Under the pieces are notes generated by a model. The model saw only the letters and a list, made by a program, of their open reading frames with translations. It did no database searches and had not been told where the DNA came from. Shown in pieces: positions 25,452 through 64,000 of a stretch of 64,000 nucleotides of DNA (position 1 is its first letter; the number at the start of each line of letters is the position of its first letter). The translations under genes were made by a program, and so were the position numbers. Location: contig JAFQUJ010000016.1 of assembly GCA_017408585.1 (NCBI GenBank), forward strand, positions 45,094-109,093, read 5' to 3'. Origin of the DNA: Clostridia bacterium. Its GTDB lineage: Bacteria > Bacillota > Clostridia > Oscillospirales > CAG-272.

Positions 25452-27344
25452 TTATTCCTCGTCATTTGTAGGAACGAGTGCATCAAGAGTTGTTGGAGCA
25501 AGAACCTTTTCAGCCTGCTCATAGGTTACTGTATAGAGGCTTGCGTCCTCGTAGTCAAGAGTTGATACCTTGCATGAGGTTGTTGTGTCCTGAATGAACT
25601 GAACCTCTTCGCCTTCAACATAAGCATACGCTGTGATTACAAGCTCCAGCTGTGTAAGCTCTGTTGTGGTAAAGCCACTAATTGAGAACTTGAAGTTATT
25701 ATACTCTACGCTCTCTTGCTCTATCATGATAGCGCCCTTCTTGCCTTCTGCCAAATTAACGCTTCCGTCTGCTTTCAAGAAGCGATTGCTTGCTAGGTGG
25801 GTTGGGTTTAGCATCAAGATACCGAAGGTGATATCCTTTTCGTTATGGAGATTATATAGGTCAAAGTTGTCCTTATTTACTGTCCAACCGCCTGCAATTG
25901 AGCCTGAGCCATCAATTGAGTATCCACCTGTGGTGCTGAAGATTGGATCAAGGTCTATTTTTTCGTTTGCTTGGTTACAGTTTTCTACTTGACAGAAGAT
26001 TTCGTGCAAGCCTGCGCTTGTAAAGCCCTCTGTGTAGGTTATTATATGCTTTACATTATGATCGTCTGCTACCTTTGCGATAAAGCCCTTACACTGAACG
26101 CCCTCTGCCTCGTTGTAGTTCTTGCAGTAGTTATCCTTTGTGCAATCGTAGTTTTCAAACTCGTGCTCGAGCATTGAGTTTGGTGTTTCAATGGCGCTTA
26201 GCTCCTTACCGCAGAAGCAGTTTGTTGTTACCTTTTCAAGTGAGTAACAGGTTGCTGGGACAAGATCTGCGAGTCTTGGATCTTCGAGGTGCTTTGCAAG
26301 ATCAGCTTCAGACGCACAGAATACGGCTGTTCTTGTGTTTGAATAGCTTTCAAAATCCGAGCTTGACTTATCGTTTGCGTTTGCAAAAATAATTTTTTGT
26401 GTGCTTCCCCAATATCCTGTGGAAATTGTAGTCATGTCGCCCAAAAATACGATTGTATTTTTAGGTCCGTTCTGGAAGAAATACTGATTTGGCATAGCTG
26501 TGAGTTTATCGCCAAATACTAATACATCGTTTAGATTCTTACATTCTCTACATACGCTATTGTTTGAAATGCTCGTAAGGTTTGCAGGGAAATAGTAAAT
26601 TTCCGGTTTTTCCGGAACATTCTCATATGTAAAGGTTTCGTTTACAAAATACATATTAACGCAATCATCAAAGCTTGCATTTCTTGATCCGCCGCCACCA
26701 CTTGACCATGTTTCAAGCGACTCCGAAAGGTGTACCGCACCTAAGTTCGTACATCCTGAAAAGTGAGCAACATCGTATAGCGAGGTAAAGCAGTCGGGCA
26801 TTGAGAATGCTTTAAGATTTTTACAGCCATAGAACATATATGACGGGAAGACTCTCATCGTATTGTTTTCACTAAACTTAAGTGTACACTCCTCAAGTCC
26901 TGTTGCATTTTGGAAAATGGCATTTGAAAGACTTGATATAGTATCTGGGAAGGTTATCCACTTCAATGTTGTACCGTTGCTTCCTGCATACTTTGCAACA
27001 TGAGTGATTCCGGTAGGGATATCGAAGCCCTTTATGTCTGCATAAGTATAAAGATTGCCAGCCTCCTCGGTTTTGCCAAGCTTGCTGTTGATATAGTCAA
27101 AATCCATATAAGACTCAAAAGTAGTATTATAGTTTCCTGAGCCTACGGTCGAGGTATCCTTAAACACATAGCTTACAGGACACTTAAAGCCGTCATAGAA
27201 TTCAACAATTTCGCTATCAATACATTGATATTTGGTTCTTACAGGTGCGTCGGTGTAGGTTGTAACCTCTGCACTAACAGAGATTGCAAGCACAGCGCAA
27301 AGTGCAATTACCATTACAAGAGTTAAAAGCAATTTCTTTTTCAT
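25452..27344 (-). CDS. secreted BspA-type leucine-rich-repeat protein, paralog 1 (signal peptide + LRR + Cys-rich module + conserved C-terminal domain)
   Basis: 630 aa. Signal peptide MKKKLLLTLVMVIALCAVLAISVSAE. LRR_5-like repeats (FQNATGLEECTL, FYGCKNLKAF, FSGCTNLGAV). The C-terminal ~190 aa are nearly identical to paralog 2. Confidence 0.75.
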   Translation of the reverse strand: MKKKLLLTLVMVIALCAVLAISVSAEVTTYTDAPVRTKYQCIDSEIVEFYDGFKCPVSYVFKDTSTVGSGNYNTTFESYMDFDYINSKLGKTEEAGNLYTYADIKGFDIPTGITHVAKYAGSNGTTLKWITFPDTISSLSNAIFQNATGLEECTLKFSENNTMRVFPSYMFYGCKNLKAFSMPDCFTSLYDVAHFSGCTNLGAVHLSESLETWSSGGGGSRNASFDDCVNMYFVNETFTYENVPEKPEIYYFPANLTSISNNSVCRECKNLNDVLVFGDKLTAMPNQYFFQNGPKNTIVFLGDMTTISTGYWGSTQKIIFANANDKSSSDFESYSNTRTAVFCASEADLAKHLEDPRLADLVPATCYSLEKVTTNCFCGKELSAIETPNSMLEHEFENYDCTKDNYCKNYNEAEGVQCKGFIAKVADDHNVKHIITYTEGFTSAGLHEIFCQVENCNQANEKIDLDPIFSTTGGYSIDGSGSIAGGWTVNKDNFDLYNLHNEKDITFGILMLNPTHLASNRFLKADGSVNLAEGKKGAIMIEQESVEYNNFKFSISGFTTTELTQLELVITAYAYVEGEEVQFIQDTTTSCKVSTLDYEDASLYTVTYEQAEKVLAPTTLDALVPTNDEE

Positions 27345-27405: not shown

Positions 27406-27435
27406 ATTATATATCATCAAGCATTAATATGTCAA
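27406..27435 (-). promoter_or_regulatory. sigma70-like promoter of LRR gene 1
   Basis: Minus strand: TTGACA (27435-27430), 18 nt spacer, TATAAT (27411-27406). Confidence 0.6.
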
Positions 27436-27437
27436 GT

Positions 27438-27494
27438 CATTTTGCACAAAAATAAAGCCCCCCCCCCCGATTTTTGTGCAAAATGCACAAAATT
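27438..27494 (-). promoter_or_regulatory. upstream control module: 16 bp perfect inverted repeat around a G11 tract, plus a second TGTGCA/TGCACA palindrome
   Basis: + strand: CATTTTGCACAAAAAT (27438-27453), aaag, C11 (27458-27468), g, ATTTTTGTGCAAAATG (27470-27485), then CACAAAATT. TTTGTGCA-aaa-TGCACAAA forms a second palindrome. Confidence 0.6.
27458..27468. repeat. homopolymeric tract, C11 on + strand (G11 in gene orientation)
   Basis: Counted directly: 3 C at 27458-27460 plus 8 C at 27461-27468. Confidence 0.95.
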
Positions 27495-27498
27495 AAAC

Positions 27499-27539: not shown

Positions 27540-29432
27540 TTATTCCTCGTCATTTGTAGGAACGAGTGCGTCAAGAGTTGTTGGAGCAAGAACCTTTTCT
27601 GCTTGCTCGTAGGATACTGTGTAGAGGCTTGCGTCCTCGTAGTCAAGAGTTGATACCTTGCATGAGGTTGTTGTGTCTTGAATGAACTGAACCTCTTGTC
27701 CTTCAACATACGCATACGCTGTAATTACAAGCTCCAGCTGTGTAAGCTCTGTTGTAGTAAAGCCACTAATTGAGAACTTGAAGTTATTATACTCTACGCT
27801 CTCTTGCTCTATCATAATAGCGCCCTTCTTGCCTTCTGCCAAATTAACGCTTCCGTCTGCCTTCAAGAAGCGATTGCTTGCTAGGTGGGTTGGGTTTACC
27901 ATCAAAATACCGAAGGTAATATCCTTTTCGTTATGGAGATTATATAGGTCAAAGTTATCCTTATTTACTGTCCAACCGCCTGCAATTGAGCCTGAGCCAT
28001 CAATTGAGTAGCCACCTGTGGTGCTAAAGATTGGATCAAGGTCTATTGATGCGTCAAGCTGTGTGCAGTTTTCGTTTTGGCAGAATATCTTATGCAAGCC
28101 CATGCTTGTAAAGCCACTCACATAGGTCACTGTATTCTTTTCGATATGACTAAGTGCCTCGGCCTCGAGTGAAGCTCCACAATGTGCGTAATTCTTGCAC
28201 TCATTTCCCTTGGTGCAATCAAAATTTTCCTCATACTCGTGATCAAGCATTGTGTTTGGTGTTTCGCCCTCGCTAATCACAGTATTGCAGAAGCAACGGG
28301 TTACGCCCTTTTCGTTTGAGTAGCATGTAGCAGGCTCAATAGTTGAATGTTTAGGGCTTGCCATGTGCTTTGAAAGGTCGCTTTCGGAAGCGCAGAATAC
28401 GGCTGTTCTTGAATTGGTGTAACTTGCAAAATCCGCACTTGATTTGTCGTTAGCGTTTGCAAAAATTATTTTTGAAGTTTTCCAGTTGGTTGTATTTATC
28501 TCGGTCATATCTCCAAGGAATACAACCGTGCTTGTAACATTCTTGAAAAGATAGCTACCGCTTGCGGAGGTGATCTGTGTTCCGAACACCAAAACGCTGT
28601 TCAAGGAAGTGGCACTTTCAAAGGTGTTTGTGTGAATGGTGTGAAGACTTTCGGGGAAGTAGTAAATATCGGGTTTTGCAGGGGCTGTATCACTTGTAGT
28701 AAATGGTTCGCTTACAAAATATACCTTGCTGAGGTTTTGAAAGACTGCGTATCTGTTCGAGCCTGTCTTTTCAAGTATTTGAATGTTTTTCGATAGATAA
28801 ACGGGACCCAAGCTCGAGCAATCTTTAAAGAAGTTACCCTCACCTGTTATCGTGGTAATGCAGTCGGGAATGCTAAGCGCCTTTAATTTTGAGCAACCAG
28901 CGAACATCCAACCGGAAAGGGTTGTAAATTCGGTATCGGCTTCCGTATGCTCAAAAACAACCTCTTCAAGAACTGCTGAGTTTTGAAAACCGGTACTACC
29001 AATGGATGTAACGGTGTGGGGGAATGTGATTTTCTTAACCGAGCTCAAGGAGTGGGCAAATTGATCTCCAAGGGTAGTAATTCCCTCCGGAATATCAAGC
29101 TCAACAATGTTGTCAATTGTGTAATTCTTTCCCTTTTCCGTAAGGAATGAAAAGTCAAGCACTTTCTTAAGTCCAGCATTTCCGTAGGAGCCCTTATCAA
29201 CGGTTGCTTGGTCCTTGAAAATATAATGGCTTGGGCAAACAAATCCGTCATCAAACACAACATAGTCGTCAGTTGAGTTGACAAAGGTTGATTTTGCGGG
29301 CGCGTCGGGGTAGGTTGTAACCTCTAAAGCCTCGCCATCAACCGTTGTAATCGTTTTTGCACTTACGCAAAGAGCGAAAATCGAGCAAAGTACAATTACC
29401 ATTACAAGAGTTAAAAGTAATTTCTTTTTCAT
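27540..29432 (-). CDS. secreted BspA-type leucine-rich-repeat protein, paralog 2
   Basis: Start placed at MKKKLLLTLVMVIVLCSIFALCVSAK (ATG 29432, after AAGGAGA), giving 630 aa like paralog 1. The ORF-track upstream extension to 29507 would cover the conserved promoter/UTR. Confidence 0.75.
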   Translation of the reverse strand: MKKKLLLTLVMVIVLCSIFALCVSAKTITTVDGEALEVTTYPDAPAKSTFVNSTDDYVVFDDGFVCPSHYIFKDQATVDKGSYGNAGLKKVLDFSFLTEKGKNYTIDNIVELDIPEGITTLGDQFAHSLSSVKKITFPHTVTSIGSTGFQNSAVLEEVVFEHTEADTEFTTLSGWMFAGCSKLKALSIPDCITTITGEGNFFKDCSSLGPVYLSKNIQILEKTGSNRYAVFQNLSKVYFVSEPFTTSDTAPAKPDIYYFPESLHTIHTNTFESATSLNSVLVFGTQITSASGSYLFKNVTSTVVFLGDMTEINTTNWKTSKIIFANANDKSSADFASYTNSRTAVFCASESDLSKHMASPKHSTIEPATCYSNEKGVTRCFCNTVISEGETPNTMLDHEYEENFDCTKGNECKNYAHCGASLEAEALSHIEKNTVTYVSGFTSMGLHKIFCQNENCTQLDASIDLDPIFSTTGGYSIDGSGSIAGGWTVNKDNFDLYNLHNEKDITFGILMVNPTHLASNRFLKADGSVNLAEGKKGAIMIEQESVEYNNFKFSISGFTTTELTQLELVITAYAYVEGQEVQFIQDTTTSCKVSTLDYEDASLYTVSYEQAEKVLAPTTLDALVPTNDEE

Positions 29433-29492: not shown

Positions 29493-29521
29493 ATTATATA
29501 TTACCAAGCATTATATGTCAA
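29493..29521 (-). promoter_or_regulatory. sigma70-like promoter of LRR gene 2
   Basis: Minus strand: TTGACA (29521-29516), 17 nt spacer, TATAAT (29498-29493). Confidence 0.6.
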
Positions 29522-29544
29522 GTCATTTTGCACAAAAAATAAAG

Positions 29545-29554
29545 CCCCCCCCCC
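29545..29554. repeat. homopolymeric tract, C10 on + strand (G10 in gene orientation)
   Basis: Counted directly. Flanked by CATTTTGCACAAAAAAT and ATTTTTGTACAAAATGCACAAAATT. Confidence 0.95.
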
Positions 29555-29584
29555 GATTTTTGTACAAAATGCACAAAATTAAAC

Positions 29585-51833: not shown

Positions 51834-52688
51834 TTATTCTATTGTGATTAAAATTATCTCGGGGCGATTATTTACTCTTAGTGGGCAAAGGCTATTGCCT
51901 ATTCCTCGGCTGATTACCATGTTTGTTTTGCCCTCGGTGTGCAAGCCCTCGCTATATTTGGGGAAAAAGCCTTGATTTGGTGCGATAAGTCCACCGACAA
52001 AGGGGATTTGCGCCTGTCCTCCATGTGCGTGTCCTGTCAAGGCGAGGTCAATTTCTGCGTCAACATATGACATAAATGTTTCGGGGCGATGGCAAAGAAC
52101 GATTGTATAGCCCTCGATATTCTCTACAAGTGGTAAAAGCTTGCCCGACACAACTGCGCTTGCCATTTCGGTGCTATCCTTTTGTAGAACGAACATTGGG
52201 TCCTCTATTCCTATTATGGTAAATATCTCACCGTTTTGCTCATGGGTCGTTTTTTGGTCACAAAGAATGGTAACTCCAAGCTCGGCAAGGGCGGTTTTTA
52301 GTTGCTCGTACTCTTCTTTTATTCTGCTTTCGTGGTTGCCCGGCACATAGTAGCACGGGGCAATCCGGGCTAGCTCTCGAACGAAGTCAATCGAACGCTT
52401 TACCTTGGTGTGGCGTGAGTCAATAAGGTCGCCTGTGATGGCGATTATATCGGGGGCGCTTTCTCTTACAAGTGCGATTAGCTCCTCATTATCATTTTGG
52501 AATTTTGCGTTATGAAAATCCGATATGTGTGCGATTTTAAGCCCTGATGTGTTCGATTTTATGGAAATTCTGGTGAGCACGGGGGCTTTATTCGACCAAA
52601 TTATCCACACAATAAGCGCTAGTAGCAACACTGTCAAGCAAGATAGTATTACTGTCGCTGTAACATGGTTTTTTAAAAAATCAAGCAT
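51834..52688 (-). CDS. membrane-anchored metallophosphoesterase (calcineurin-like, YkuE-type)
   Basis: N-terminal TM segment. Motifs ISDFH, GDLID, GNHE and GHAHGGQ. Confidence 0.8.
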   Translation of the reverse strand: MLDFLKNHVTATVILSCLTVLLLALIVWIIWSNKAPVLTRISIKSNTSGLKIAHISDFHNAKFQNDNEELIALVRESAPDIIAITGDLIDSRHTKVKRSIDFVRELARIAPCYYVPGNHESRIKEEYEQLKTALAELGVTILCDQKTTHEQNGEIFTIIGIEDPMFVLQKDSTEMASAVVSGKLLPLVENIEGYTIVLCHRPETFMSYVDAEIDLALTGHAHGGQAQIPFVGGLIAPNQGFFPKYSEGLHTEGKTNMVISRGIGNSLCPLRVNNRPEIILITIE

Positions 52689-52822
52689 TTTTTGCTCCTT
52701 GTGGGTATTCTTCTTTTTTTCTTTGTACTTTTTCTTTAAGAGAAGAAAAAGCTACCAAAAAGAAACTATATGAAAAATCCATCTTTAATTTATTTTACCA
52801 CACATTACCCAAATTTACAAGT

Positions 52823-52887
52823 AAGGAGCAGGAAATTCCTGCTCCTTATTCTTTTTTACTATTCAGACACAGAACCGTCTTCTGTCT
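52823..52887 (-). repeat. island repeat, type A copy 3 (core GACGGTTCTGTGTCT + GAAtAGTAAAAAAGAATAAGG + hairpin)
   Basis: Shares the core and AGTAAAAAAGAATAAGG with copies at 54611 and 56561. The hairpin here is AAGGAGCAGG-aattt-CCTGCTCCTT. Confidence 0.8.
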
Positions 52888-53320
52888 GCTTCCTTTGCTT
52901 AATACATAAAGCTACAGATGATAATATCAATATCACTCCTAACACAGACACAAAAAACAAAAATATCAACGCACTTCCGAAGTTTATTGTTTGTAATCCA
53001 TATAGTCTTATGGCAAAATTTGAAAAATAAAAATCCAAAACGAATGTAATAATCGGAGTCAATACAAATTGAACGCATGCGATTAAAAACAAATTAAATT
53101 TTCTCGACATAGAAAAGCACCAAAAAATTATCAAAAGCATAAATCCAGATGCAAGTATAATTGCTAAAATAACAAAGAAAGCACCCAACTTCATTCCATT
53201 CAATTCAACGCCTATTACCGCAATCATTAAGCATATGAAAAAAGCTACCGACTCTGCAAAAGAAATAACAATCGCAAAGGCTATATTTTTTAGTGCATCT
53301 AATATCTTATTATTTATCAT
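52859..53320 (-). CDS. small polytopic membrane protein, candidate immunity protein
   Basis: 153 aa, about 4 TM. Its ATG overlaps (ATGA) the stop of the Ntox44-like frame upstream. Confidence 0.55.
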   Translation of the reverse strand: MINNKILDALKNIAFAIVISFAESVAFFICLMIAVIGVELNGMKLGAFFVILAIILASGFMLLIIFWCFSMSRKFNLFLIACVQFVLTPIITFVLDFYFSNFAIRLYGLQTINFGSALIFLFFVSVLGVILILSSVALCIKQRKQTEDGSVSE

Positions 53321-53608
53321 TTGATACCTCCGTTTCGTATTTCATACAAAACAATTCCCAAAGCTATGCATCTAGAATCTCGTGGCTCATCAAAGAAAGT
53401 AGTCCAATAGCTCCATTTGCTAGTTCTAGATCGTATTTGTATTGCTCCACCCGCTAAAAATAATGTATGTGCAGGAAATAATTCGCGTCCCACATATCCA
53501 TAATGAATATTTCCCGGATCATCAAATCTTAAAGGAACACCATGAAGCCCAGCAAGGACAAAACTGTAATTATCACTAAAAATACAAAAAAATATAACAT
53601 TTTTTCAT
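53317..53608 (-). pseudogene. frameshifted small secreted toxin gene, polymorphic-toxin type 44 (Ntox44)-like
   Basis: RBS AAGGAG plus ATG (53608) gives MKKCYIFLYF-stop. After a T7 run (A7 at 53586-53592 on the + strand) the +1 frame reads FCIFSDNYSFVLAGLHGVPLRFDDPGNIHYGYVGRELFPAHTLFLAGGAIQ...DEPRDSRCIALGIVLYEIRNGGIK. The span is 292 nt, i.e. 3n+1. Confidence 0.6.
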
Positions 53609-53649
53609 TTTCACTCCTTAATAAAGTTTATATCCTGCTTTTGCAGCTC

Positions 53650-53685
53650 TGTCAAGACAAGCTTACTTTGGAGACACAGAACCAC
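53650..53685 (-). repeat. island repeat, type B copy 2 (core + CCAAAGTAAGCTTGTCTTGACA)
   Basis: Minus strand: GGTTCTGTGTCTCCAAAGTAAGCTTGTCTTGACA. The TTGACA, a 17 nt spacer and TATAAA form a promoter-like element facing the Ntox44-like gene. Confidence 0.8.
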
Positions 53686-54400
53686 ATCCTATATCCTTTA
53701 AAATTTTTAAAAATTTATTTCTTAATTTTTTATATTGAAAAATATACAAACCATCTTTTTGTGTGCCCATAAAAGCAACTTTTTTTGAAGTTATTATACC
53801 GACTGGAAAATGGTAATATTTGTATCCTTGTGCAACATTTTCATTTACATAATTCACAAATGAGGAAGAAACTTGATCAGCAATAATAATATTAATAGTC
53901 TTAATTACTGCATAAATTCTTTCGCTTTCATAATAATTTTTCAAAACATCAAAAATCATTTGTTTTATTTTATAACTCGAAAACTCCTCTTCCTCGCCAA
54001 ACTTCATTATTGTTACACATTCAGCCTCAAAAGGAAATCTTTTACTTTTGATGTAAAATTCAATACGATGATTTGCTTGAATAGACAAATATCCGTTAGA
54101 CAACAAGTTACTTCTTATTTTTTCATAAAAATTCTCATAACTATCAAACAAATGTTCTATTTTTTGAGCATGTGTTTTAGGGCGCTTTAAATCCATTTTG
54201 AAAATAGAAATAAACATGACCATTATGGATATTATAGCACTTAAAAGCAAACATATAGTTATTGTTTGATATATTTCATCAGTCAGTTTAGAAAACACAT
54301 ATTTCCCAAAAAGCGCAAATACAAACAACGAGCACAATAATGTCCATGTGGAAATTATTAAGAACTTTACGACTATATTTTTGTTATCTCTCAAAAGCAT
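53663..54400 (-). CDS. hypothetical membrane protein (2 N-terminal TM + cytoplasmic domain), candidate immunity protein
   Basis: 245 aa. Its start is overlapped by the end of an upstream start-less ORF fragment. Confidence 0.5.
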   Translation of the reverse strand: MLLRDNKNIVVKFLIISTWTLLCSLFVFALFGKYVFSKLTDEIYQTITICLLLSAIISIMVMFISIFKMDLKRPKTHAQKIEHLFDSYENFYEKIRSNLLSNGYLSIQANHRIEFYIKSKRFPFEAECVTIMKFGEEEEFSSYKIKQMIFDVLKNYYESERIYAVIKTINIIIADQVSSSFVNYVNENVAQGYKYYHFPVGIITSKKVAFMGTQKDGLYIFQYKKLRNKFLKILKDIGCGSVSPK

Positions 54401-54560
54401 TCCCCTTTCTATGAAAAATCTGAATAGTTTCTTTTTGGTTAGAATTGCTTATTACATCAATCGAAGAAACCGCCATCATTTGTACCGATATTTGACCTAT
54501 ATTTGCAGTTGCATGTTCTCCTAAAAGTGATTGTATGAGTGTTTGAGGAACCTCGCTACA
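54384..54560 (-). pseudogene. start-less ORF fragment, candidate orphan toxin C-terminal remnant
   Basis: Open frame bounded by an upstream TAA: CSEVPQTLIQSLLGEHATANIGQISVQMMAVSSIDVISNSNQKETIQIFHRKGNAFER. It overlaps the next gene's ATG by 17 nt. No family recognised. Confidence 0.35.
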
Positions 54561-54610
54561 TTAAAATAAACGCTACGATTCTTGTTCAGTGTATATATTT
54601 AGTTTTGAAT

Positions 54611-54683
54611 AGGGGGGAGTTTCCTACCCCTTATTCTTTTTTACTGTTCAGACACAGAACCGTCCCATGTCTCCTCCATGTCA
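54611..54683 (-). repeat. island repeat, type A copy 2
   Basis: Minus strand: TGACATGGAGGAGACATGGGACGGTTCTGTGTCTGAACAGTAAAAAAGAATAAGGGGTAGGAAACTCCCCCCT. Confidence 0.8.
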
Positions 54684-55172
54684 CTTTTCTTCAATACACT
54701 CAATTTTTTCTTTTAATTTTAAATAATCTCTATATAAAATTTTAAATTTAATTTGTTTCGAATTGTCCAATTTGATTTCAAACAATCCGCCTAATTGTTG
54801 TTTATAAAAATATATAAAAGGAATGTTATACCATTTGCATACATAATACCTTGCAAAAATCACCTGAGAATATTCATATTCTTTTTGAAAAATTACAAAT
54901 GTTTTTTCTTTTAAGATTAATATGTTTTTATTATTTGAATTTGCAATAAAACAAAGCAACATTGAAATTCCCATTATCAAAATACATAGAATATACAAAA
55001 TCACAATTATCTTATATATTAAAGGATTTTGATTATGAAATAAAGAAATGATAAGAAGCAGTGTGTTTATATAAAAAATCAAACTTGGTAAAATGGTGCA
55101 CATAACTATGCCTTCAAACAAATTTATTTTTATTTTTCTCATTATGTTTACCCTTCTAAAATGCGTTTTCAA
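54681..55172 (-). CDS. hypothetical membrane protein, candidate immunity protein
   Basis: 163 aa, 2-3 TM. Follows the glycine-zipper-like fragment. Confidence 0.5.
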   Translation of the reverse strand: MKTHFRRVNIMRKIKINLFEGIVMCTILPSLIFYINTLLLIISLFHNQNPLIYKIIVILYILCILIMGISMLLCFIANSNNKNILILKEKTFVIFQKEYEYSQVIFARYYVCKWYNIPFIYFYKQQLGGLFEIKLDNSKQIKFKILYRDYLKLKEKIECIEEK

Positions 55173-55180
55173 AAAATTTG

Positions 55181-55333
55181 TTAGGAATAAAACTTATCGT
55201 GAAATATAGCCGAGTCAATTGCGTATTGTGCCAAGCCCATTCCTGCTCCCACAGCAATAGAACCAACTAAACCAATGCCCGTATAAGGCAATGCTGTTGA
55301 AGCAACTGCAAACAACCCATCAATTCCCGCCTG
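55181..55333 (-). pseudogene. start-less fragment encoding a Gly-zipper-like hydrophobic C-terminal peptide (candidate membrane-active toxin remnant)
   Basis: My translation: QAGIDGLFAVASTALPYTGIGLVGSIAVGAGMGLAQYAIDSAIFHDKFYS-stop. No ATG or RBS. It begins next to the stop of the upstream gene. Confidence 0.4.
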
Positions 55334-55343
55334 TCTGTTCTGT

Positions 55344-55739
55344 CTAAAATTTTCCTCTACCTATGGCATCGTCATAGACCAATCTTAAAAGAGTAAGCAC
55401 AGAAAATACTATAAAAGCATAGTGCCAAAAAGTAAACCTTAAGAATACAAATTCATTTATTAATAAAATACAAATCGTTAGACACCCTAACAAAATATGA
55501 ATGTATGACAAATAAGCAATGCATCTGTATTTTCTATCATAATATTCCTTGAAAATTGGTATCCAAAAAAAGCGTTCAACAGCCGACCAGTTTGTTTTGT
55601 AATGCTTTTTCGCTCTTTTCCAACTTTTTCCATGTCCATATTTTCTTGGATAAGCAATTGCGACAAAAACGCCTCTTGCATGCCAATCCGTTATCGCAAA
55701 TGATAATATAACAAGAGAAATCACACCTAAAATATACAT
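55344..55739 (-). CDS. hypothetical membrane protein, candidate immunity protein
   Basis: 131 aa, 3-4 TM. Its ATG sits immediately after the TAA of a 29-codon fragment. Confidence 0.5.
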   Translation of the reverse strand: MYILGVISLVILSFAITDWHARGVFVAIAYPRKYGHGKSWKRAKKHYKTNWSAVERFFWIPIFKEYYDRKYRCIAYLSYIHILLGCLTICILLINEFVFLRFTFWHYAFIVFSVLTLLRLVYDDAIGRGKF

Positions 55740-55829
55740 TTAATCCCCCCCGTATTTAACAACAGATTTTACTGCTTTAGTCCAAATAGAATTAGAGCCC
55801 GCCTCTATCCACTCTAACGCTTGTCCGTT
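55740..55829 (-). pseudogene. 29-codon start-less fragment (candidate toxin C-terminal tip)
   Basis: NGQALEWIEAGSNSIWTKAVKSVVKYGGD-stop, abutting the next ATG (GATTAAATG). Confidence 0.3.
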
Positions 55830-55849
55830 TTAAATTCAAGTGAAACAAC

Positions 55850-55920
55850 GAATCTTCTCCATGTCAAGACAAGCTTACTTTGGAGACACAGAACCGTCCC
55901 TTGTCACCTGTCCTGTCTTC
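55850..55920 (-). repeat. island repeat, type B copy 1
   Basis: Minus strand: GGGACGGTTCTGTGTCTCCAAAGTAAGCTTGTCTTGACATGGAGAAGATTC. Confidence 0.8.
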
Positions 55921-56244
55921 TCAAAATTTAAATATATGTACATTCTCACCTTTTTTTATCACTTTTTCGTACTCTTTTGGCGATATAATATGAGCTGAAT
56001 TATTCTTAAATAAAATGTAGTTTGTAATAATAGACTCAATAGTTTCTTCTATATCAAACTTATCAACATCATGATAATGAATATCATCAATATAAACATC
56101 AAAAAAACCAAAGTTAAAAACTATTTTAATAAAGTGATTCATTGAATTATCAATAATCAAATCATTTTCATTTAACACAATCTTATAACTCAGCAATTTT
56201 TTTGAAATTACCTCATAAAGTTGTTTTAACGATTCACATCTCAT
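55921..56244 (-). CDS. small cytoplasmic protein, candidate immunity protein of the RHS-derived fragment
   Basis: 107 aa, acidic, no TM. RBS GGAGGTG, 16 nt after the stop of the upstream fragment. Confidence 0.5.
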   Translation of the reverse strand: MRCESLKQLYEVISKKLLSYKIVLNENDLIIDNSMNHFIKIVFNFGFFDVYIDDIHYHDVDKFDIEETIESIITNYILFKNNSAHIISPKEYEKVIKKGENVHIFKF

Positions 56245-56260
56245 AACATCACCTCCATAA

Positions 56261-56576
56261 TTAGAAGAAATAACCTAAACCAGACGAAATAAATCCATTA
56301 ACAATACCAGGAGTGAAGAATCTATGTAGAGCCCTTAGGGAATTAGATTTACCAAAATGATAATGTAATCCATTTAGTTCTTTTCCACTCAGAGTAAGCG
56401 GCAACTGCAACTCCATTATCGCTCATTACTATAATTATATCACCTTGAAGATTCTTTGTAAAGTAATAATACTCAAATTGTTCTTCCGTTGGCAGATTTG
56501 GATTTTCTTTGCTTCCGTCACGATATGCCATTCCAATGGGAGCGCCTGATTCGTCATAGAAATAAGGGGTAGTTTC
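56261..56576 (-). pseudogene. RHS/YD-repeat protein 3' fragment with an internal frameshift (orphan toxin C-terminus)
   Basis: Open frame from a TAG at the repeat-A hairpin: ETTPYFYDESGAPIGMAYRDGS...EYYYFTKNLQGDIIIVMSDNGVAVAAYSEW, which is the YD-repeat pattern. It stops at 56349. The +1 frame after an A4 run continues KELNGLHYHFGKSNSLRALHRFFTPGIVNGFISSGLGYFF-stop at 56261. Confidence 0.6.
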
Positions 56577-56627
56577 CTACCCCTTATTCTTTTTTTACTG
56601 TTCAGACACAGAACCGTCTTCTGTCTG
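56561..56627 (-). repeat. island repeat, type A copy 1
   Basis: Minus strand: CAGACAGAAGACGGTTCTGTGTCTGAACAGTAAAAAAAGAATAAGGGGTAGGAAACTACCCCTTATT, with an 11 bp perfect hairpin (56561-56571 / 56578-56588). Confidence 0.8.
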
Positions 56628-56643
56628 TTTACTCTGTGTGTTC

Positions 56644-57096
56644 TTAAAACCGTGCGCCGTCGGGAGTTGGATATGTGTTTATCCAACCACAAAGATCAGT
56701 TATACCAAGTTCATTACACAAAGCCTCATACTCTTCTATTGTTAAAGAATCATATACATCTTTCGTTTCCGTATTGATTATACAGTATTTTGCCTTTTCG
56801 ATGTCCATTTTTAATATTTCTTCCTGTCTTGCATCACTGGCTAACTCAAAACGCCTTGCACACACATATTTATCATTATAAGCAAAACAAACAACATAAT
56901 TATCTATTACTTTGGAATAAGCATTACCTTTTTCATTCTTGATTCCTATTCCAATGGAATTACTGTTTGCTCTAACAATATAATAGTCATTTGGCAACTC
57001 GTATTCCCAATCAGACAGTCCTGGACTAACACAAGAAAAAAGCGAAAAGCATATTATTGCTATAATTATCAAACACAGTATATTTGTTTTTTTCAT
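56644..57096 (-). CDS. putative lipoprotein (DUF3997-like by recollection)
   Basis: MKKTNILCLIIIAIICFSLFSC has a lipobox. Start taken at the second ATG (57096), after GGTGA. Confidence 0.55.
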   Translation of the reverse strand: MKKTNILCLIIIAIICFSLFSCVSPGLSDWEYELPNDYYIVRANSNSIGIGIKNEKGNAYSKVIDNYVVCFAYNDKYVCARRFELASDARQEEILKMDIEKAKYCIINTETKDVYDSLTIEEYEALCNELGITDLCGWINTYPTPDGARF

Positions 57097-57243
57097 GGCA
57101 ATTTCACCCATAATTCTACATACAATTTCCCATATTACAAAATATCCAAACGATACAATGGATAATTTTGGTATTCTTTAATTTATTTTATCACATATTA
57201 TGTCAATTTACAAGTAATTAGAAAATTTTCGTTTAAGTACAAT

Positions 57244-57277
57244 AAAAAAGCAAGAATTGTGACAATTCTTGCTTTTT
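57244..57277 (-). terminator. terminator of tyrS
   Basis: AAAAAGCAAGAATTG-tgac-AATTCTTGCTTTTT. Confidence 0.7.
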
Positions 57278-57287
57278 GTCTTTTATT

Positions 57288-58511
57288 TTAGAGTGTTACC
57301 TTTTTATATGCCTTTTTGCCACGGCGCAAAACGAGTCCGTCGCCGATTTGCTCCTTGGTGTAGGTTGCCTTTGCGCTTGTTACCTTTTCACCGTTTACTG
57401 TTACTCCGCCTTGCTCAACTGCGCGTCTTGCCTCGCTTCTTGAAGGAACGAGCTCTGCTCTTACGAGCATTGCGAGAATGTCAACGCATCCGTCTCTGAA
57501 ATCCTCGTCGAGAAGTGCTACGCTAGGCATATTTTCGCTATCGCCCGCTGAGAAGATTGCTCTTGCGCTTGCCTGTGCCTTTTCAGCCTCCTCCTCGCCA
57601 TGAACGAGCTTTGTTAGCTCATATGCGAGAATTTCCTTTGCACGATTGAGCTGTGAGCCCTCCCACTTATCCATTGCGTCGATTTCTTCAAGTGGTAGGA
57701 AGGTGAGCATTCTTATACATTTAAGAACATCGGCATCTCCCACATTTCTCCAATATTGATAGAAGTCAAAGGGTGATGTTTTATTTGGGTCAAGCCATAC
57801 TGCGCCCGATTGGGTTTTACCCATTTTCTTGCCCTCGGAGTTGAGGAGCAATGTGATTGTCATTGCGTGCGCGTCCTTACCGAGCTTTCGTCTTATAAGC
57901 TCTGTACCACCGAGCATATTACTCCATTGGTCATCGCCACCAAACTGCATATTACAGCCATAGGTTCTAAATAGCTCCAAGAAGTCATAGCTTTGCATAA
58001 TCATGTAGTTGAATTCAAGGAAGGAGAGTCCTCTTTCCATTCTTTGCTTATAGCACTCAGCTGTGAGCATTCTATTTACGCTAAAGCAAGCGCCAACCTC
58101 GCGAAGAAGCTCTACATAATTTAGGTTAAGTAGCCAATCGGCGTTATTAACCATCATTGCCTTGCCCTCTCCAAACTCGATGAAGCGTGACATTTGCTTT
58201 TTAAAGCACTCGCAGTTATGGTCGATTGTTTCCTTAGTCATCATTGAACGCATATCCGTTCTGCCTGATGGGTCGCCTATATATGCAGTTCCGCCACCGA
58301 TAAGTGCGATTGGCTTATTGCCTGCCATTTGAAGTCTTTTCATTAAGCAAAGCGCCATGAAGTGTCCAACATGAAGGCTATCTGCAGTTGGGTCAAAGCC
58401 GATATAGAATACAGCCTTGCCATTATTTACCATTTCTCTGATTTCTTCCTCGTTTGTAACCTGAGCGATAAGCCCACGAGCAACGAGCTCTTCATAAATT
58501 TGCATTTTCAA
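57288..58511 (-). CDS. tyrS: tyrosine--tRNA ligase
   Basis: 407 aa. HVGH (HIGH motif), KMGKT (KMSKS motif) and a C-terminal S4 domain. Confidence 0.95.
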
Positions 58512-62117: not shown

Positions 62118-63728
62118 TTATACTATTTCAAGCGTACCATTGATTGTTTTAAGGGTTGTTATTCCTTTTTTCTTTGCTACATTATAAAGCGTAACAACCT
62201 CAAGGTTAACTCCGCCTACCGACTTTTCTTGATAGTAGGTTGAATCCTTTTCCGCTTGAACGAAGGTATAGCCCTCGTCATTCTTTACATAAAGCGCCAT
62301 TGCAAGATTTAGGCTTTGAGCATTTTCAGAGCTGAAGTTTTCAATTGCTATATTTACGATTGCATATTGAGTATCAACCTCAATTTGAATTCCCTTTCCG
62401 TCAACTACGCCTGCTTCTGTAAAGATGGTTTCGCCGATTGAGTCAGTATTAATAATTATAAGTCCAATTGATACAATTGCGTCAGGAGCGAATTCTTGAT
62501 ATTTTCCAAGCTCGATTTTATTGATTTTAAAGCCTGCGCTAAGACCGCCTGTGCCATCCTCTCTTGTGGAATATCCAATTGCTTCAAATAGCGCCGGGGT
62601 TTTGTACTCGCCCTCTTTATCAATAAGCTCTGTTCCAAGTATGCATCCTGCCTCGTTATTACAGGTTATCTTCTTTGTGCCCTGTGCGGTAAAGCCATCA
62701 GGGAATGTCCATTCTACTGTTACAGAGTGTGTCTTGCCTTCCTCTGATACTCCGCATTTTGAACAGGTAGCTCCTGTTGTACACATATGGTCATCCTCTG
62801 CGATTTCGTGTTTACCGTAAAATTCGCAGAAGGTCATAATGGTTGCCTCCCACAAAGCATTATTTGCATTCTTGTTGTTTCCACCCTGCCATATGGTTGT
62901 ATAAGAATTAATTTGATCTTCAGTGTAAACGCCTTCGGTTTTAGGAACTAGCCAAACCACGCTAAATGCCGAGGTGTTTTTGTTCCAGGTCAAGCGTGGG
63001 TCGCTTGCGTCTTCTGGGGTTATTCCCTCGTGTATATACACAACACTCTTTATATTTGAGTTGGAATTCAAGTTTTGTAAAGCAGTATTTCTAATCGTTC
63101 CTGTTGCACCCTCGTGGAATACGACCTTTTCCATGCTTGAGCAGAAGAAGTTACCTGTAAGAAGGTTGTTTTTTCCGTAGAAGTGAACCTCTTTAAGAGA
63201 TGTGCATCCACTAAGGAAGCCACCCTTAGATTGAGGCTCATATGCTCTTGCAAAGAAGCTTAGCTTTTCAAGCGCGCTCCAGCCTGCTAAGTTTCCTTGG
63301 CTACCTGCACCATCTCCGAGAACAGGTATATGGAATTCAAGCTCGGTTATTTGTGTATGCAGGCTTGTTGTCTTTGTGTCCTTGTCGGAAAGAGCATACA
63401 CGGATAGCGTTCCATTCCAGCCTGTTGAAAGTCTAACATAGCTATATTCCGCAAACTTATACACGGTGCCGTTTGAGTGTGTGAGCTCAATTGCGGGAAT
63501 TACAATTTTGGTAACGGAGGTATCGTGAAGGTAGATATACTTAAGCCTACAGTTTCCTCCTGTTTCCCATGGATTTTGAATTTCAAGCTCGTATGCGATG
63601 TCGGCGCTATCTGCCTCTACTTGCTCACCGTTGTGATTTACATATACAGCCTCAGCTGATACTGAAATTGCGAGCATACAAGCAATAGCGACTACTAATA
63701 ATGTCAACATTAAAAGTCTTTTTTTCAT
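62118..63728 (-). CDS. secreted BspA-type leucine-rich-repeat protein, paralog 3 (diverged)
   Basis: 536 aa. Signal peptide MKKRLLMLTLLVVAIACMLAISVSAE. LRR-like blocks (GCTSLKEVHF...), a Cys module (CTTGATCSKCG) and a C-terminal domain distantly similar to paralogs 1 and 2. Confidence 0.7.
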   Translation of the reverse strand: MKKRLLMLTLLVVAIACMLAISVSAEAVYVNHNGEQVEADSADIAYELEIQNPWETGGNCRLKYIYLHDTSVTKIVIPAIELTHSNGTVYKFAEYSYVRLSTGWNGTLSVYALSDKDTKTTSLHTQITELEFHIPVLGDGAGSQGNLAGWSALEKLSFFARAYEPQSKGGFLSGCTSLKEVHFYGKNNLLTGNFFCSSMEKVVFHEGATGTIRNTALQNLNSNSNIKSVVYIHEGITPEDASDPRLTWNKNTSAFSVVWLVPKTEGVYTEDQINSYTTIWQGGNNKNANNALWEATIMTFCEFYGKHEIAEDDHMCTTGATCSKCGVSEEGKTHSVTVEWTFPDGFTAQGTKKITCNNEAGCILGTELIDKEGEYKTPALFEAIGYSTREDGTGGLSAGFKINKIELGKYQEFAPDAIVSIGLIIINTDSIGETIFTEAGVVDGKGIQIEVDTQYAIVNIAIENFSSENAQSLNLAMALYVKNDEGYTFVQAEKDSTYYQEKSVGGVNLEVVTLYNVAKKKGITTLKTINGTLEIV

Positions 63729-63915
63729 AATTCTTCTCCTTGCAGGTAGCCCCTGCGGGCATAAAATTTTTCACATCAAATTATACCATAAAAGCAAACA
63801 CGCAAGTGTTTGTTAGCATCAAGGATGCGTTTTTCAAGCATATTGCGAAGAAAAACCTTTTAGCCGTCAATAAAATTACTGCAACAAGCTTGCCTTGTTG
63901 GTATAAAGTAATTTT

Positions 63916-63945
63916 ATTATACCATATATCGCATTTATTTGTCAA
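63916..63945 (-). promoter_or_regulatory. sigma70-like distal promoter of LRR gene 3
   Basis: Minus strand: TTGACA (63945-63940), 18 nt spacer, TGgTATAAT (TATAAT at 63921-63916). A second TGgTATAAT at 63788-63780 could be a proximal promoter. Confidence 0.5.
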
Positions 63946-63964
63946 TATGCACAATAAACAAATA

Positions 63965-63974
63965 CCCCCCCCCC
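63965..63974. repeat. homopolymeric tract, C10 on + strand (G10 in gene orientation)
   Basis: Counted directly. Flanked by ATATGCACAATAAACAAATA and GTTTTTTGTATATTTTGCACAAAAAT. The window ends at 64000. Confidence 0.95.
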
Positions 63975-64000
63975 GTTTTTTGTATATTTTGCACAAAAAT

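What the first reader, a model, noticed from the sequence alone, without database searches (positions are those of the whole stretch)
63729..64000. Third, diverged copy of the G-tract module (G10) upstream of the distant LRR paralog, with a long structured 5' region and two extended -10 promoters
About 34 kb from the tandem pair, the diverged paralog (62118..63728) has C10 at 63965-63974. It is flanked by TGCACAA (63949-63955) on the gene-proximal side and by TTTTGTATATTTTGCACAAAAA (63978-63999) on the distal side. The proximal half-site again abuts a TTGACA (63945-63940), followed by 18 nt and TGgTATAAT. The tract-plus-repeat arrangement is retained even though the coding sequence and the rest of the upstream region have diverged, which argues for selection on the module. 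Between this promoter and the ATG lie ~190 nt containing an 11 bp stem (ATAAAATTACT/AGTAATTTTAT around 63880-63935) with a nested 7 bp stem. This region also holds a second TGgTATAAT (63788-63780) and a hairpin adjacent to the SD. The module is cut by the window end, so its distal part is not visible.
Basis: seen in the sequence. Interest (0 to 1): 0.7.

Follow-up and report, generated by a model that had tools for sequence, protein, structure and literature searches.

The report
Poly-G phase-variable promoter cassette, third copy
This is a complete third copy of a conserved promoter cassette that uncultured gut Clostridia place in front of secreted surface-protein genes; its slippage-prone run of ten G's sets the spacing between two conserved sequence boxes, and the odd long leader behind it is a strain-variable 136-bp tandem duplication.

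Summary
G10 lies at 63965-63974 (- strand), flanked by TTGTGCA boxes, followed by a 12/12 consensus extended -10 promoter and a second TGGTATAAT 136 nt downstream.

A scan of 185,579 species genomes found the same cassette 19 more times. All copies are in uncultured Clostridia MAGs, about 100 nt upstream of secreted paralogs only 23-31% identical to each other.

Cassette: TTTTTGTGCA-N3-TGCACAAAAA-WC-G(8-11)-ATTTGTTTA-TTGTGCA-TA-TTGACA-18-TRTGnTATAAT, a short leader, a GC hairpin, then SD.

The box-to-box distance is 41 bp in 20 of 24 haplotypes, and G-run length offsets flank length (rho -0.83). Assemblies with identical flanks carry G8, G9 or G10. The window has G10 (spacing 42), whereas a 99.98% identical contig has G9 (41).

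The "long structured 5' region with two -10s" is a 136-bp tandem repeat with 0, 1 or 2 extra units among close strains. It is not a conserved RNA element and has no Rfam match.

The window end cuts nothing essential: only a terminator and a fucosidase gene lie beyond.

The likeliest mechanism is slipped-strand phase variation through operator spacing, as in nadA, Bordetella fim and Treponema tpr. No effect on expression, and no regulator, has been shown. This is a new member of a known kind.

The parts
63980..63999 (-). Distal box: TTTT-TTGTGCA-AAA-TATACAA. It is the degenerate form (2 mismatches in the right half) of the family palindrome TTGTGCA-N3-TGCACAA.
   Evidence: Across the family the palindrome is perfect in 16 loci. 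Alignment.
63975..63979 (-). AAAAC, the conserved A-tract plus C that precedes the G run (family consensus ACAAAAAWC).
63965..63974 (-). G10 homopolymer, the hypermutable spacer. By inference it lies at about -65 to -56 relative to the predicted P1 start.
   Evidence: Length varies between 8, 9 and 10 among assemblies with identical flanks. The 99.98% identical contig L039 has G9.
63955..63964 (-). TATTTGTTTA, the conserved T-rich flank. Its length (8-10 nt across the family) offsets G-run length.
63946..63954 (-). Proximal box TTGTGCA (63954-63948) plus TA, abutting the -35. It lies 42 bp from the distal box here, against a family mode of 41.
   Evidence: D3: direct repeat 42 apart.
63916..63945 (-). 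Promoter P1: TTGACA (63945-63940), an 18-nt spacer, TATG-G-TATAAT (-10 at 63921-63916). The predicted start is about 63909.
   Evidence: 12/12 with TG. Same geometry in 27 haplotypes. Start site not mapped.
63791..63926 (-). One 136-bp unit of a variable-number tandem repeat. It begins with TATGGTATAAT; the same 11 nt recur at 63790-63780.
   Evidence: D2. TRF on L039: period 136, 2.1 copies, 97% match. Alleles with 0, 1 and 2 extra units.
63869..63918 (-). Stem-loop inside the unit: 12-bp perfect arms plus a nested 7-bp stem. The 5' arm overlaps the P1 -10 and predicted start.
   Evidence: -15.4 kcal/mol, z -4.45.
63790..63812 (-). Terminator-like hairpin CAAACAC-UUGC-GUGUUUG followed by CUUUUAU, just upstream of the second -10.
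   Evidence: -7.3 kcal/mol, z -2.25. Function untested.
63780..63790 (-). P2: a duplicated TATGGTATAAT (extended -10 with TRTG motif) without a -35. From its end to the ATG is 51 nt, which is the canonical leader length of the family.
   Evidence: No -35 match by direct reading.
63736..63756 (-). GC hairpin GCAGG-GGCUA-CCUGC (63756-63742) immediately 5' of the SD AAGGAG (63741-63736). This is a family-wide leader feature.
   Evidence: 18 of 23 distinct leaders fold with z < -1.5, using different stem sequences. Also.
62118..63728 (-). Gene C: a 536-aa secreted protein with signal peptide MKKRLLMLTLLVVAIACMLAISVSA, a diverged BspA-like LRR N-terminal half, a Cys/His-rich linker and a C-terminal beta-rich domain.
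27406..27495 (-). Copy A of the cassette: G11 at 27458-27468, boxes at 27484-27490 and 27443-27449, TTGACA at 27435-27430, TATAAT at 27411-27406. It lies upstream of LRR_5 gene 25452-27344.
29493..29581 (-). Copy B of the cassette: G10 at 29545-29554, boxes at 29570-29576 and 29529-29535, TTGACA at 29521-29516, TATAAT at 29498-29493. It lies upstream of LRR_5 gene 27540-29432.

Best explanation
Window 63916-63999 (- strand) is a complete copy of a promoter cassette that one clade of uncultured gut Clostridia places in front of many secreted surface-protein paralogs.

The cassette is a near-consensus sigma-A promoter (TTGACA, 18 nt, TRTGnTATAAT). A TTGTGCA box abuts its -35. About four helical turns upstream lies a palindrome, TTGTGCA-N3-TGCACAA. 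The G run sits between the two boxes.

Because a G8-G11 run slips during replication, the box-to-box distance toggles around the preferred 41 bp. By inference, this changes how a still unidentified DNA-binding protein on the boxes, and/or RNA polymerase, cooperates across the spacer, so transcription of each paralog switches heritably and reversibly. [quoted passage not shown]

The window's copy is at 42 bp, one step off the mode, and its distal palindrome is degenerate.

The long leader is a separate, later event. A 136-bp segment that starts with the -10 element was inserted or duplicated in this lineage. It now varies in copy number (0, 1, 2 or more extra units). It leaves P1 joined to the cassette and a -35-less extended -10 (P2) at the canonical distance from the start codon.

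Shown: the anatomy, the conservation, the spacing constraint, and the length and copy-number polymorphism.
Inferred: protein binding, the effect on expression, which spacing is ON, and which promoter is used.
For: - Specificity: the pattern scan of 185,579 species genomes gave 22 hits. Of these, 21 are in Clostridia/Oscillospiraceae MAGs (up to 7 per MAG) and 19 are full cassettes about 100 nt upstream of genes starting MKK(K/R)LL...SVSA.
- In the window all three G>=8 runs are cassettes in front of the only three family genes.
- The cassette is far more conserved than the proteins, which share 23-31% identity.
- Spacing: the distal-to-proximal box distance is 41 bp in 23 of 30 copies and 20 of 24 distinct haplotypes. 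G length against 3' flank length gives rho -0.83 (p 5e-7, permutation p < 5e-5). True indel compensation is seen in L018, L020 and window copy A versus B.
- The proximal box to -10 distance is also held at 33 nt, as 9+6+18 or 10+6+17.
- Hypervariability: with identical flanks the run is G8, G9, G10 and G10 (L042, L009, L040, L041), and G10 versus G9 (window, L039; 1 mismatch in 5809 bp). Five assemblies of another lineage all give G9, so the calls are reproducible.
- One lineage has a locked, interrupted run GGGGTCGGG of 9 nt. Bordetella parapertussis fim genes have comparable interrupted tracts, C6TC3 and C9TC8 (PMC1891110).
- Tandem repeat.
- Mechanistic precedents: nadA, with operators flanking the repeat and one overlapping the promoter (PMC2791445); Treponema tpr poly-G with a CRP homolog (PMC7864442); the Bordetella fim C-stretch plus fim box.
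Against: - No expression data, mapped start site or binding protein exists for any copy.
- Every sequence is a metagenome assembly consensus, so switching within one population is not shown.
- Homopolymer lengths can be miscalled.
- The window and L039 may be two assemblies of the same sample.
- Part of the G-length/flank offset is explained by simple substitution of the last G (G10-A versus G9-T/C/A-A), which keeps the total length without any selection on indels.
- The distal box, the A-tract and G>=7 were required by the search pattern, so their conservation among the pattern hits is partly by construction. The proximal box, the -35, the spacings and the gene family were not required.
- The core promoter is already consensus, so an activator is not obviously needed.
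- Whether 41 bp means ON or OFF cannot be decided.
Confidence: 0.68

Rival explanations
1. RNA-polymerase-only model. No dedicated regulator exists. The A-tract, G run and T-rich stretch upstream of the -35 act as an UP-element or curved-DNA region, and G-run length alters alpha-CTD contacts or curvature phasing.
For: The G run is flanked by ACAAAAA and ATTTGTTTA at about -45 to -75, where UP elements act. In nadA, residual repressor-independent differences between repeat variants were attributed to RNA polymerase contacts. No regulator gene is consistently adjacent.
Against: A 17-bp palindrome that is perfect in 16 loci, plus a third copy of the same heptamer abutting the -35, is the signature of a dimeric DNA-binding protein rather than an UP element. 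In the window the palindrome occurs only in the three cassettes.
Confidence: 0.15
2. The G run is a passive conserved spacer. The observed length differences are neutral drift or assembly and sequencing error, and there is no functional switching.
For: All data are consensus assemblies. The window and L039 may derive from one sample. One lineage manages with an interrupted run.
Against: A pure G8-G11 run is kept in about 30 copies across several species, although any sequence of that length would do as a spacer. In two of the three haplotypes sampled more than once it is the only variable position. Calls are reproducible within lineages: five assemblies give G9 and two give G10. Runs of this length are intrinsically slippage-prone (established knowledge).
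Confidence: 0.12
3. The ~190-nt leader is a functional cis-regulatory RNA, such as a riboswitch, an attenuator or a binding site for a regulator.
For: It folds better than shuffles (z -2.6) and carries two terminator-like hairpins.
Against: No Rfam match has E below 1. The segment is absent from orthologs with 91-96% identical proteins (L026, L009, L040-42, L053). It varies between 1 and 2 or more extra units in near-identical strains. Other family leaders measure 35-62 nt from the end of the -10 to the ATG. The main stem overlaps the -10 and start site of P1.
Confidence: 0.05
4. The 127-nt insert is a small mobile element (MITE-like) that inserted at the -10 with an 11-bp target-site duplication.
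For: It is flanked by an 11-nt perfect direct repeat and is absent from sister lineages.
Against: No second copy exists in the 64-kb window or in 55 related loci. There are no terminal inverted repeats. It occurs as head-to-tail arrays. It contains an inverted copy of TGGTATAA and a copy of TATTGAC from the promoter itself, which suggests a local rearrangement followed by duplication.
Confidence: 0.08

Closest known systems
Neisseria meningitidis nadA promoter (NadR operators flanking a TAAA repeat tract; PMC2791445)
   Same: In both, a simple-sequence repeat lies upstream of the -35, between a distal operator and an operator overlapping the promoter. Repeat number changes operator spacing and hence expression of a surface adhesin.
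   Different: Here the repeat is a mononucleotide G run rather than a tetranucleotide. The host is a Gram-positive-type Clostridium. The cassette is shared by many paralogs. The binding protein is unknown and no IHF-type site is evident. Nothing has been tested experimentally.
Bordetella fim2/fim3/fimX/fimN promoters (C-stretch plus conserved 'fim box'; PMC1891110)
   Same: In both, a homopolymeric C/G tract sits in a conserved promoter element shared by a family of surface-protein paralogs. Tract length differs among strains and tunes transcription. Interrupted 'locked' tracts occur in a related lineage (C6TC3 there, GGGGTCGGG here).
   Different: The Bordetella tract lies between the activator (BvgA) site and the -10, and there is no -35 (own knowledge). 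Here the tract is upstream of a consensus -35, between two copies of a palindromic box.
Treponema pallidum tpr subfamily II / tprL / tp0126 poly-G promoters (PMC7864442)
   Same: In both, poly-G runs of 7-12 nt occur in the promoters of a paralogous family of putative surface proteins with signal peptides. Length varies within and between isolates. A CRP-like factor acts together with tract length.
   Different: In Treponema the tract lies a few nucleotides upstream of the start site, or between the -35 and -10. Here it lies at about -56 to -65, so it cannot change the -35/-10 spacing.
Mycoplasma hyorhinis vlp genes (own knowledge)
   Same: In both, a highly conserved 5' block (promoter with a homopolymer, leader and signal peptide) is joined to very divergent mature proteins. 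Each paralog switches independently.
   Different: The vlp poly-A tract lies between the -35 and -10, and vlp products are lipoproteins with repetitive C-termini.

Membership tests
Simple-sequence-repeat (contingency) promoter locus | Homopolymer long enough to slip (>= 8 nt) | tested here: met
   G10 at 63965-63974. The family range is G8-G11, plus one partial module with G13.
Simple-sequence-repeat (contingency) promoter locus | Tract lies inside the promoter or regulatory region of the gene | tested here: met
   The run ends 19 nt upstream of a 12/12 consensus promoter whose position is conserved in 27 haplotypes. The start site is predicted, not mapped.
Simple-sequence-repeat (contingency) promoter locus | Tract length is polymorphic among otherwise identical sequences | tested here: met
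   G8, G9, G10 and G10 with identical flanks. G10 versus G9 between the window and a 99.98% identical contig. Caveat: these are assembly consensus sequences.
Simple-sequence-repeat (contingency) promoter locus | High-frequency reversible switching within a clonal population | not testable with these tools
   No reads or cultures are available.
Simple-sequence-repeat (contingency) promoter locus | Expression level depends on tract length | not testable with these tools
   Needs reporter fusions, or transcript data matched to tract length.
nadA-type spacing switch (operators flanking the repeat) | Related operator-like sequences on both sides of the repeat, one at or overlapping the promoter | tested here: met
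   A distal palindrome TTGTGCA-N3-TGCACAA and a proximal TTGTGCA abutting the -35, in all full copies.
nadA-type spacing switch (operators flanking the repeat) | Constraint on inter-operator spacing | tested here: met
   41 bp in 20 of 24 haplotypes, rho -0.83, permutation p < 5e-5.
nadA-type spacing switch (operators flanking the repeat) | A regulator binds the operators | not testable with these tools
   No regulator gene is consistently linked. No literature match for the box.
BspA-type leucine-rich repeat protein (Pfam LRR_5, PF13306) | Significant match to the LRR_5 model | tested here: not met
   Protein C and four homologs have no LRR_5 hit even at E <= 10. Copies A and B do match, at 2.8e-15 and 1.6e-14.
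BspA-type leucine-rich repeat protein (Pfam LRR_5, PF13306) | Profile-level or fold-level similarity to a solved LRR protein | tested here: met
   The C-family profile matches 4h09_A 'hypothetical leucine rich repeat protein' with E 1.9e-5 over positions 61-228. The model shows a regular short-strand solenoid pattern at residues 43-260 with pLDDT above 90. The whole-chain Foldseek search was uninformative.
Known cis-regulatory RNA (Rfam) | Match to a covariance model at or near the gathering score | tested here: not met
   The best hit has E 1.6, at 18 bits against a 186-bit threshold.
Invertible promoter (inverton) | Inverted repeats bracket the promoter, and both orientations are seen | tested here: not met
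   The inverted boxes bracket only the G run (24-nt interval), not the -35/-10. All 30 copies face the gene.
MITE / insertion element (for the 127-nt insert) | Multiple dispersed copies and terminal inverted repeats | tested here: not met
   The insert is unique in the window and in 55 loci. It occurs in tandem arrays only. The whole source genome was not searchable.

The most novel reading that the evidence does not exclude
The cassette could be the cis element of a coordinated surface-variation system not yet described in gut Clostridia. In this reading, one dedicated regulator reads the 41-bp phasing of all cassettes in a genome (seven or more per MAG), so poly-G slippage at each paralog sets which subset escapes or receives control. 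In this ortholog group a second, independent contingency layer would have arisen: copy-number variation of a 136-bp unit carrying a -10 and a terminator-like hairpin, which uncouples the gene from the cassette.
Probability: 0.12. Interest if true: 0.7.

Novelty: new member of a known kind. Interest (0 to 1): 0.5.

Why it matters
Phase variation in gut commensals is known mainly from Bacteroidales invertons. For the abundant, mostly uncultured Clostridia there is little evidence of contingency loci. My literature searches found no description of this cassette.

A conserved, easily searchable cassette would have three uses:
- It marks a whole family of variable surface proteins (BspA-like LRR adhesin candidates) in herbivore-gut Clostridia.
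- It allows ON/OFF states to be read directly from metagenomic reads.
- It gives a defined 23-bp palindrome as bait to find the regulator.

It is also a practical warning for assemblies. Both the G-run length and the 136-bp repeat number at this locus differ between assemblies that are otherwise identical.

Tried and rejected
- The Rfam scan of 63600-64000 at E <= 10 gave only chance-level hits.
- The viral contig scan for the module found nothing.
- The first metagenome scan, with a pattern specific to copy C, found nothing. The second, general pattern gave only two contigs.
- An exact look-up of protein C gave only a 2.2-kb Logan contig that breaks inside the 136-bp unit.
- A search for further copies of the 127-nt insert in the window and all loci found none, so a MITE is unlikely.
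- A search for the palindrome elsewhere in the window and loci, hoping to spot an autoregulated regulator gene, found none outside the cassettes.
- A literature search for the TTGTGCA box returned nothing relevant. By my own recollection, Rex, CRP/FNR and TnrA sites have different half-site spacing, so none was assigned.
- A G-quadruplex was rejected because there is a single G run and no neighbouring runs.
- An inverton was rejected (see the membership test).
- A 21-codon ORF inside the unit (ATG at 63838) was rejected. It lacks a well-spaced SD, and its reading frame changes in the two-unit allele.
- The whole-chain Foldseek search of the protein model was uninformative for the LRR question. 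The sequence-profile hit to 4h09 was used instead.

Full report
**1. Observation**

On the - strand the end of the window reads as follows:
- ATTTT-TTGTGCA-AAA-TATACAA-AAAAC-G10-TATTTGTTTA-TTGTGCA-TA-TTGACA
- then 18 nt and TATGGTATAAT
- then 125 nt and a second TATGGTATAAT
- then 51 nt to the ATG at 63728.

The stated coordinates are right, with two small corrections. The proximal box is at 63948-63954, not 63949-63955. The long stem is a perfect 12-mer.

The promoter scan scores P1 at 12 of 12 with an upstream TG.

The window contains only three runs of eight or more G. They give 10 overlapping matches against 0.33 expected, and no shuffle reaches that number. All three runs are on the - strand and flanked by TTGTGCA. 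They lie upstream of the only three ORFs in the window that share the signal peptide MKK(K/R)LL...AISVSA and a common C-terminal domain.

**2. The module is a conserved cassette of one clade of genomes**

I scanned one genome from each of 185,579 species for TTGTGCA-N(5-9)-ACAAAAANC-G7+. The scan gave 22 hits:
- One is a chance match inside an Aeromonas coding region.
- The other 21 are in uncultured Clostridia, Oscillospiraceae or Eubacteriales MAGs, with up to seven copies in one MAG.
- Nineteen of these have the full architecture, including parts that were not in the search pattern: the proximal TTGTGCA, TTGACA, a 17-18-nt spacer and TRTGnTAnAAT.
- Each full copy lies 90-115 nt upstream of a gene that starts with the same signal peptide.

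The proteins behind these cassettes are only 23-31% identical to the window's three, mainly over a C-terminal domain of about 220 aa. The cassettes themselves are nearly superimposable.

The window's own genome is not among the species representatives. The nearest one is MAG JAZNJK01, whose locus L009 is the ortholog of copy C, with 92% DNA identity over the gene.

**3. An unbiased check by protein homology**

Protein C belongs to about 50 clusters of unnamed Clostridia proteins with no precomputed Pfam domain, apart from the three weakest hits, which carry LRR_5.

Contigs encoding orthologs at 62% identity or more all carry the cassette. Homologs at 50%, 47% and 32% identity from other genomes have ordinary promoters, with no G run and no boxes.

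So the cassette is a property of a genome clade and is spread over divergent paralogs. It is not an heirloom of the whole protein family.

**4. Spacing constraint**

In 30 copies the distance from the start of the distal TTGTGCA to the start of the proximal TTGTGCA is 41 bp in 23, 42 bp in 4 and 40 bp in 3.

Collapsed to 24 distinct flank haplotypes:
- G-run length and 3' flank length are anticorrelated (rho -0.83, p 5e-7).
- Their sum is 19 in 20 of 24 haplotypes (permutation p < 5e-5).

Some of this is simply substitution of the last G. However, L018, L020 and the window's own pair A/B (G11 plus 8 nt against G10 plus 9 nt) show real indel compensation.

The distance from the proximal box to the -10 is also fixed at 33 nt, as 9+6+18 or 10+6+17.

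The window's copy C is at 42 bp. Its distal right half-site is TATACAA instead of TGCACAA. Several C orthologs share that degeneracy whether or not they carry the insert.

**5. Hypervariability**

- Four assemblies with identical flanks carry G8, G9, G10 and G10 (L042, L009, L040, L041).
- L039 differs from the window by one substitution in 5809 bp. It carries G9 where the window has G10.
- Five assemblies of another lineage all give G9, so the calls are not random noise.
- One lineage has the interrupted run GGGGTCGGG, 9 nt long. This freezes the spacing at 41.

Caveats: all of these are consensus assemblies. The window (an NCBI MAG contig of 241,217 bp) and L039 (an ENA contig of 241,728 bp) may come from the same sample.

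**6. The long leader**

- The orthologs L026, L009, L040-42 and L053/54 have a single -10 and lack the 125-nt insert.
- The window, L033 and L052 have two copies of TATGGTATAAT, 136 nt apart.
- L031, L032 and L039 have three.
- L051 has an N-gap inside the array.
- TRF reports period 136, 2.1 copies and 97% match in L039.

The window's single unit is a chimera of L039's two units. It has the 5' variant of unit 1 and the 3' variants of unit 2. That fits either unequal crossing-over or assembly collapse. The Logan contig for this protein also breaks inside the unit.

Subtracting 136 from the window's G-run-to-ATG distance of 236 nt gives 100, which is the family norm. P2 therefore sits at the canonical distance from the ATG, 51 nt, while P1 keeps the canonical geometry to the cassette.

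P2 has no -35 by direct reading. It does keep the TRTG extended -10 motif.

The unit has no Rfam match and no second copy anywhere in the held sequence. It contains an inverted copy of TGGTATAA and a copy of TATTGAC, which suggests a local rearrangement of promoter DNA.

The 5' arm of its 12-bp stem covers the -10 and predicted start of P1, so the stem cannot form in a P1 transcript of the one-unit allele.

A weak terminator-like hairpin lies at 63812-63795 (-7.3 kcal/mol), followed by a short U-run to 63790. It could attenuate P1 transcripts, but this is untested.

**7. The hairpin next to the SD is real and family-wide**

In 18 of 23 distinct leaders a 4-9-bp GC-rich stem ends 1-6 nt before the SD, folding with z < -1.5. 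The stem sequences differ. Its role is unknown. It might stabilise the mRNA or modulate translation.

**8. Beyond the window end**

In L039, L026 and L031-33 the bases upstream of the cassette are 'gac', then the terminator hairpin aaaagcgctctgcaaacacagggcgctttt, then the stop codon of an alpha-L-fucosidase gene (PF01120). Nothing belonging to the module is missing from the window.

**9. The protein**

Protein C has no LRR_5 hit. A profile of its family matches the solved LRR protein 4h09_A with E 1.9e-5. The AlphaFold model (pLDDT 82.9) shows:
- a regular short-strand solenoid at residues 43-260;
- a poorly modelled Cys/His-rich linker, with residues 305-333 and 358-369 below pLDDT 50;
- a beta-rich C-terminal half.

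'Diverged LRR paralog' is therefore acceptable.

**10. Mechanism and comparison**

The architecture is a distal palindromic operator, a slippage-prone repeat, and a second box at the -35. This matches the logic of meningococcal nadA, where NadR operators flank the repeat and spacing sets the level of repression (PMC2791445).

The sharing of one cassette by a paralog family, and the existence of locked interrupted tracts, match the Bordetella fim genes (PMC1891110). A poly-G run in front of paralogous surface-protein genes matches Treponema tpr (PMC7864442).

The core promoter is already consensus. I therefore lean slightly towards a repressor that binds cooperatively at 41-bp phasing. The direction of the switch remains undecided.

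I found no paper describing this cassette.

**Verdict**

The leader is re-explained as a variable-number tandem repeat. The locus is a new member of a known kind of switch, of moderate interest.

Noticed in passing
window 25452-27344 and 27540-29432 (- strand): The tandem paralogs A and B are 59% identical overall, but their last ~190 residues differ at only three positions. Their upstream terminators and cassettes are also near-identical. This suggests recent gene conversion or partial duplication of both the 3' and 5' ends.
   Followed up: partly
L027-L030 (orthologs of C at 62% identity), about 105-113 nt upstream of the start codon: The G run is interrupted (GGGGTCGGG, 9 nt) and an extra TTTGTGCA half-box lies upstream of the palindrome. 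This looks like a locked version of the switch at the modal 41-bp spacing.
   Followed up: partly
window 63899-63907 (+ strand): Inside the 136-bp unit the + strand reads TGGTATAAA. This is an extended -10-like element pointing back towards the cassette, so it could drive antisense transcription into P1.
   Followed up: no
L009 / L040-L042 leader (between the -10 and the SD hairpin): The sister lineage has its own leader expansion, an 18-nt near-duplication (ATATATGATGTGAAATTT / ATATATGATGCAAAATTT). The leader of this ortholog group seems prone to duplications.
   Followed up: no
protein C residues ~300-370 (window ~62620-62830): The family alignment has invariant or nearly invariant Cys and His in the linker (C300, H306, C315, H333, C355, C361), and parts of the linker are modelled with low confidence. 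This may be a metal-binding or disulfide-rich module shared with A and B.
   Followed up: no
L043 (ENA k141_760011) around the P0011 gene: A distant C homolog without the cassette sits between an LRR_5 protein and a 4059-aa protein carrying Peptidase_S8, Flg_new and LRR_5. These surface-protein genes therefore cluster in other genomes too.
   Followed up: no
window 52001-58000: G+C drops to 0.31-0.37 here, against about 0.42 elsewhere, with negative GC skew. This may be a foreign or otherwise atypical segment.
   Followed up: no
L002 (uncultured Butyricicoccus MAG) 2269-2297 and L022 (Oscillospiraceae SIG672): These are partial modules. L002 has the distal box plus G13, but no proximal box and a different downstream gene. 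L022 has G7 followed directly by a -35. They may be relics or variants of the cassette.
   Followed up: no
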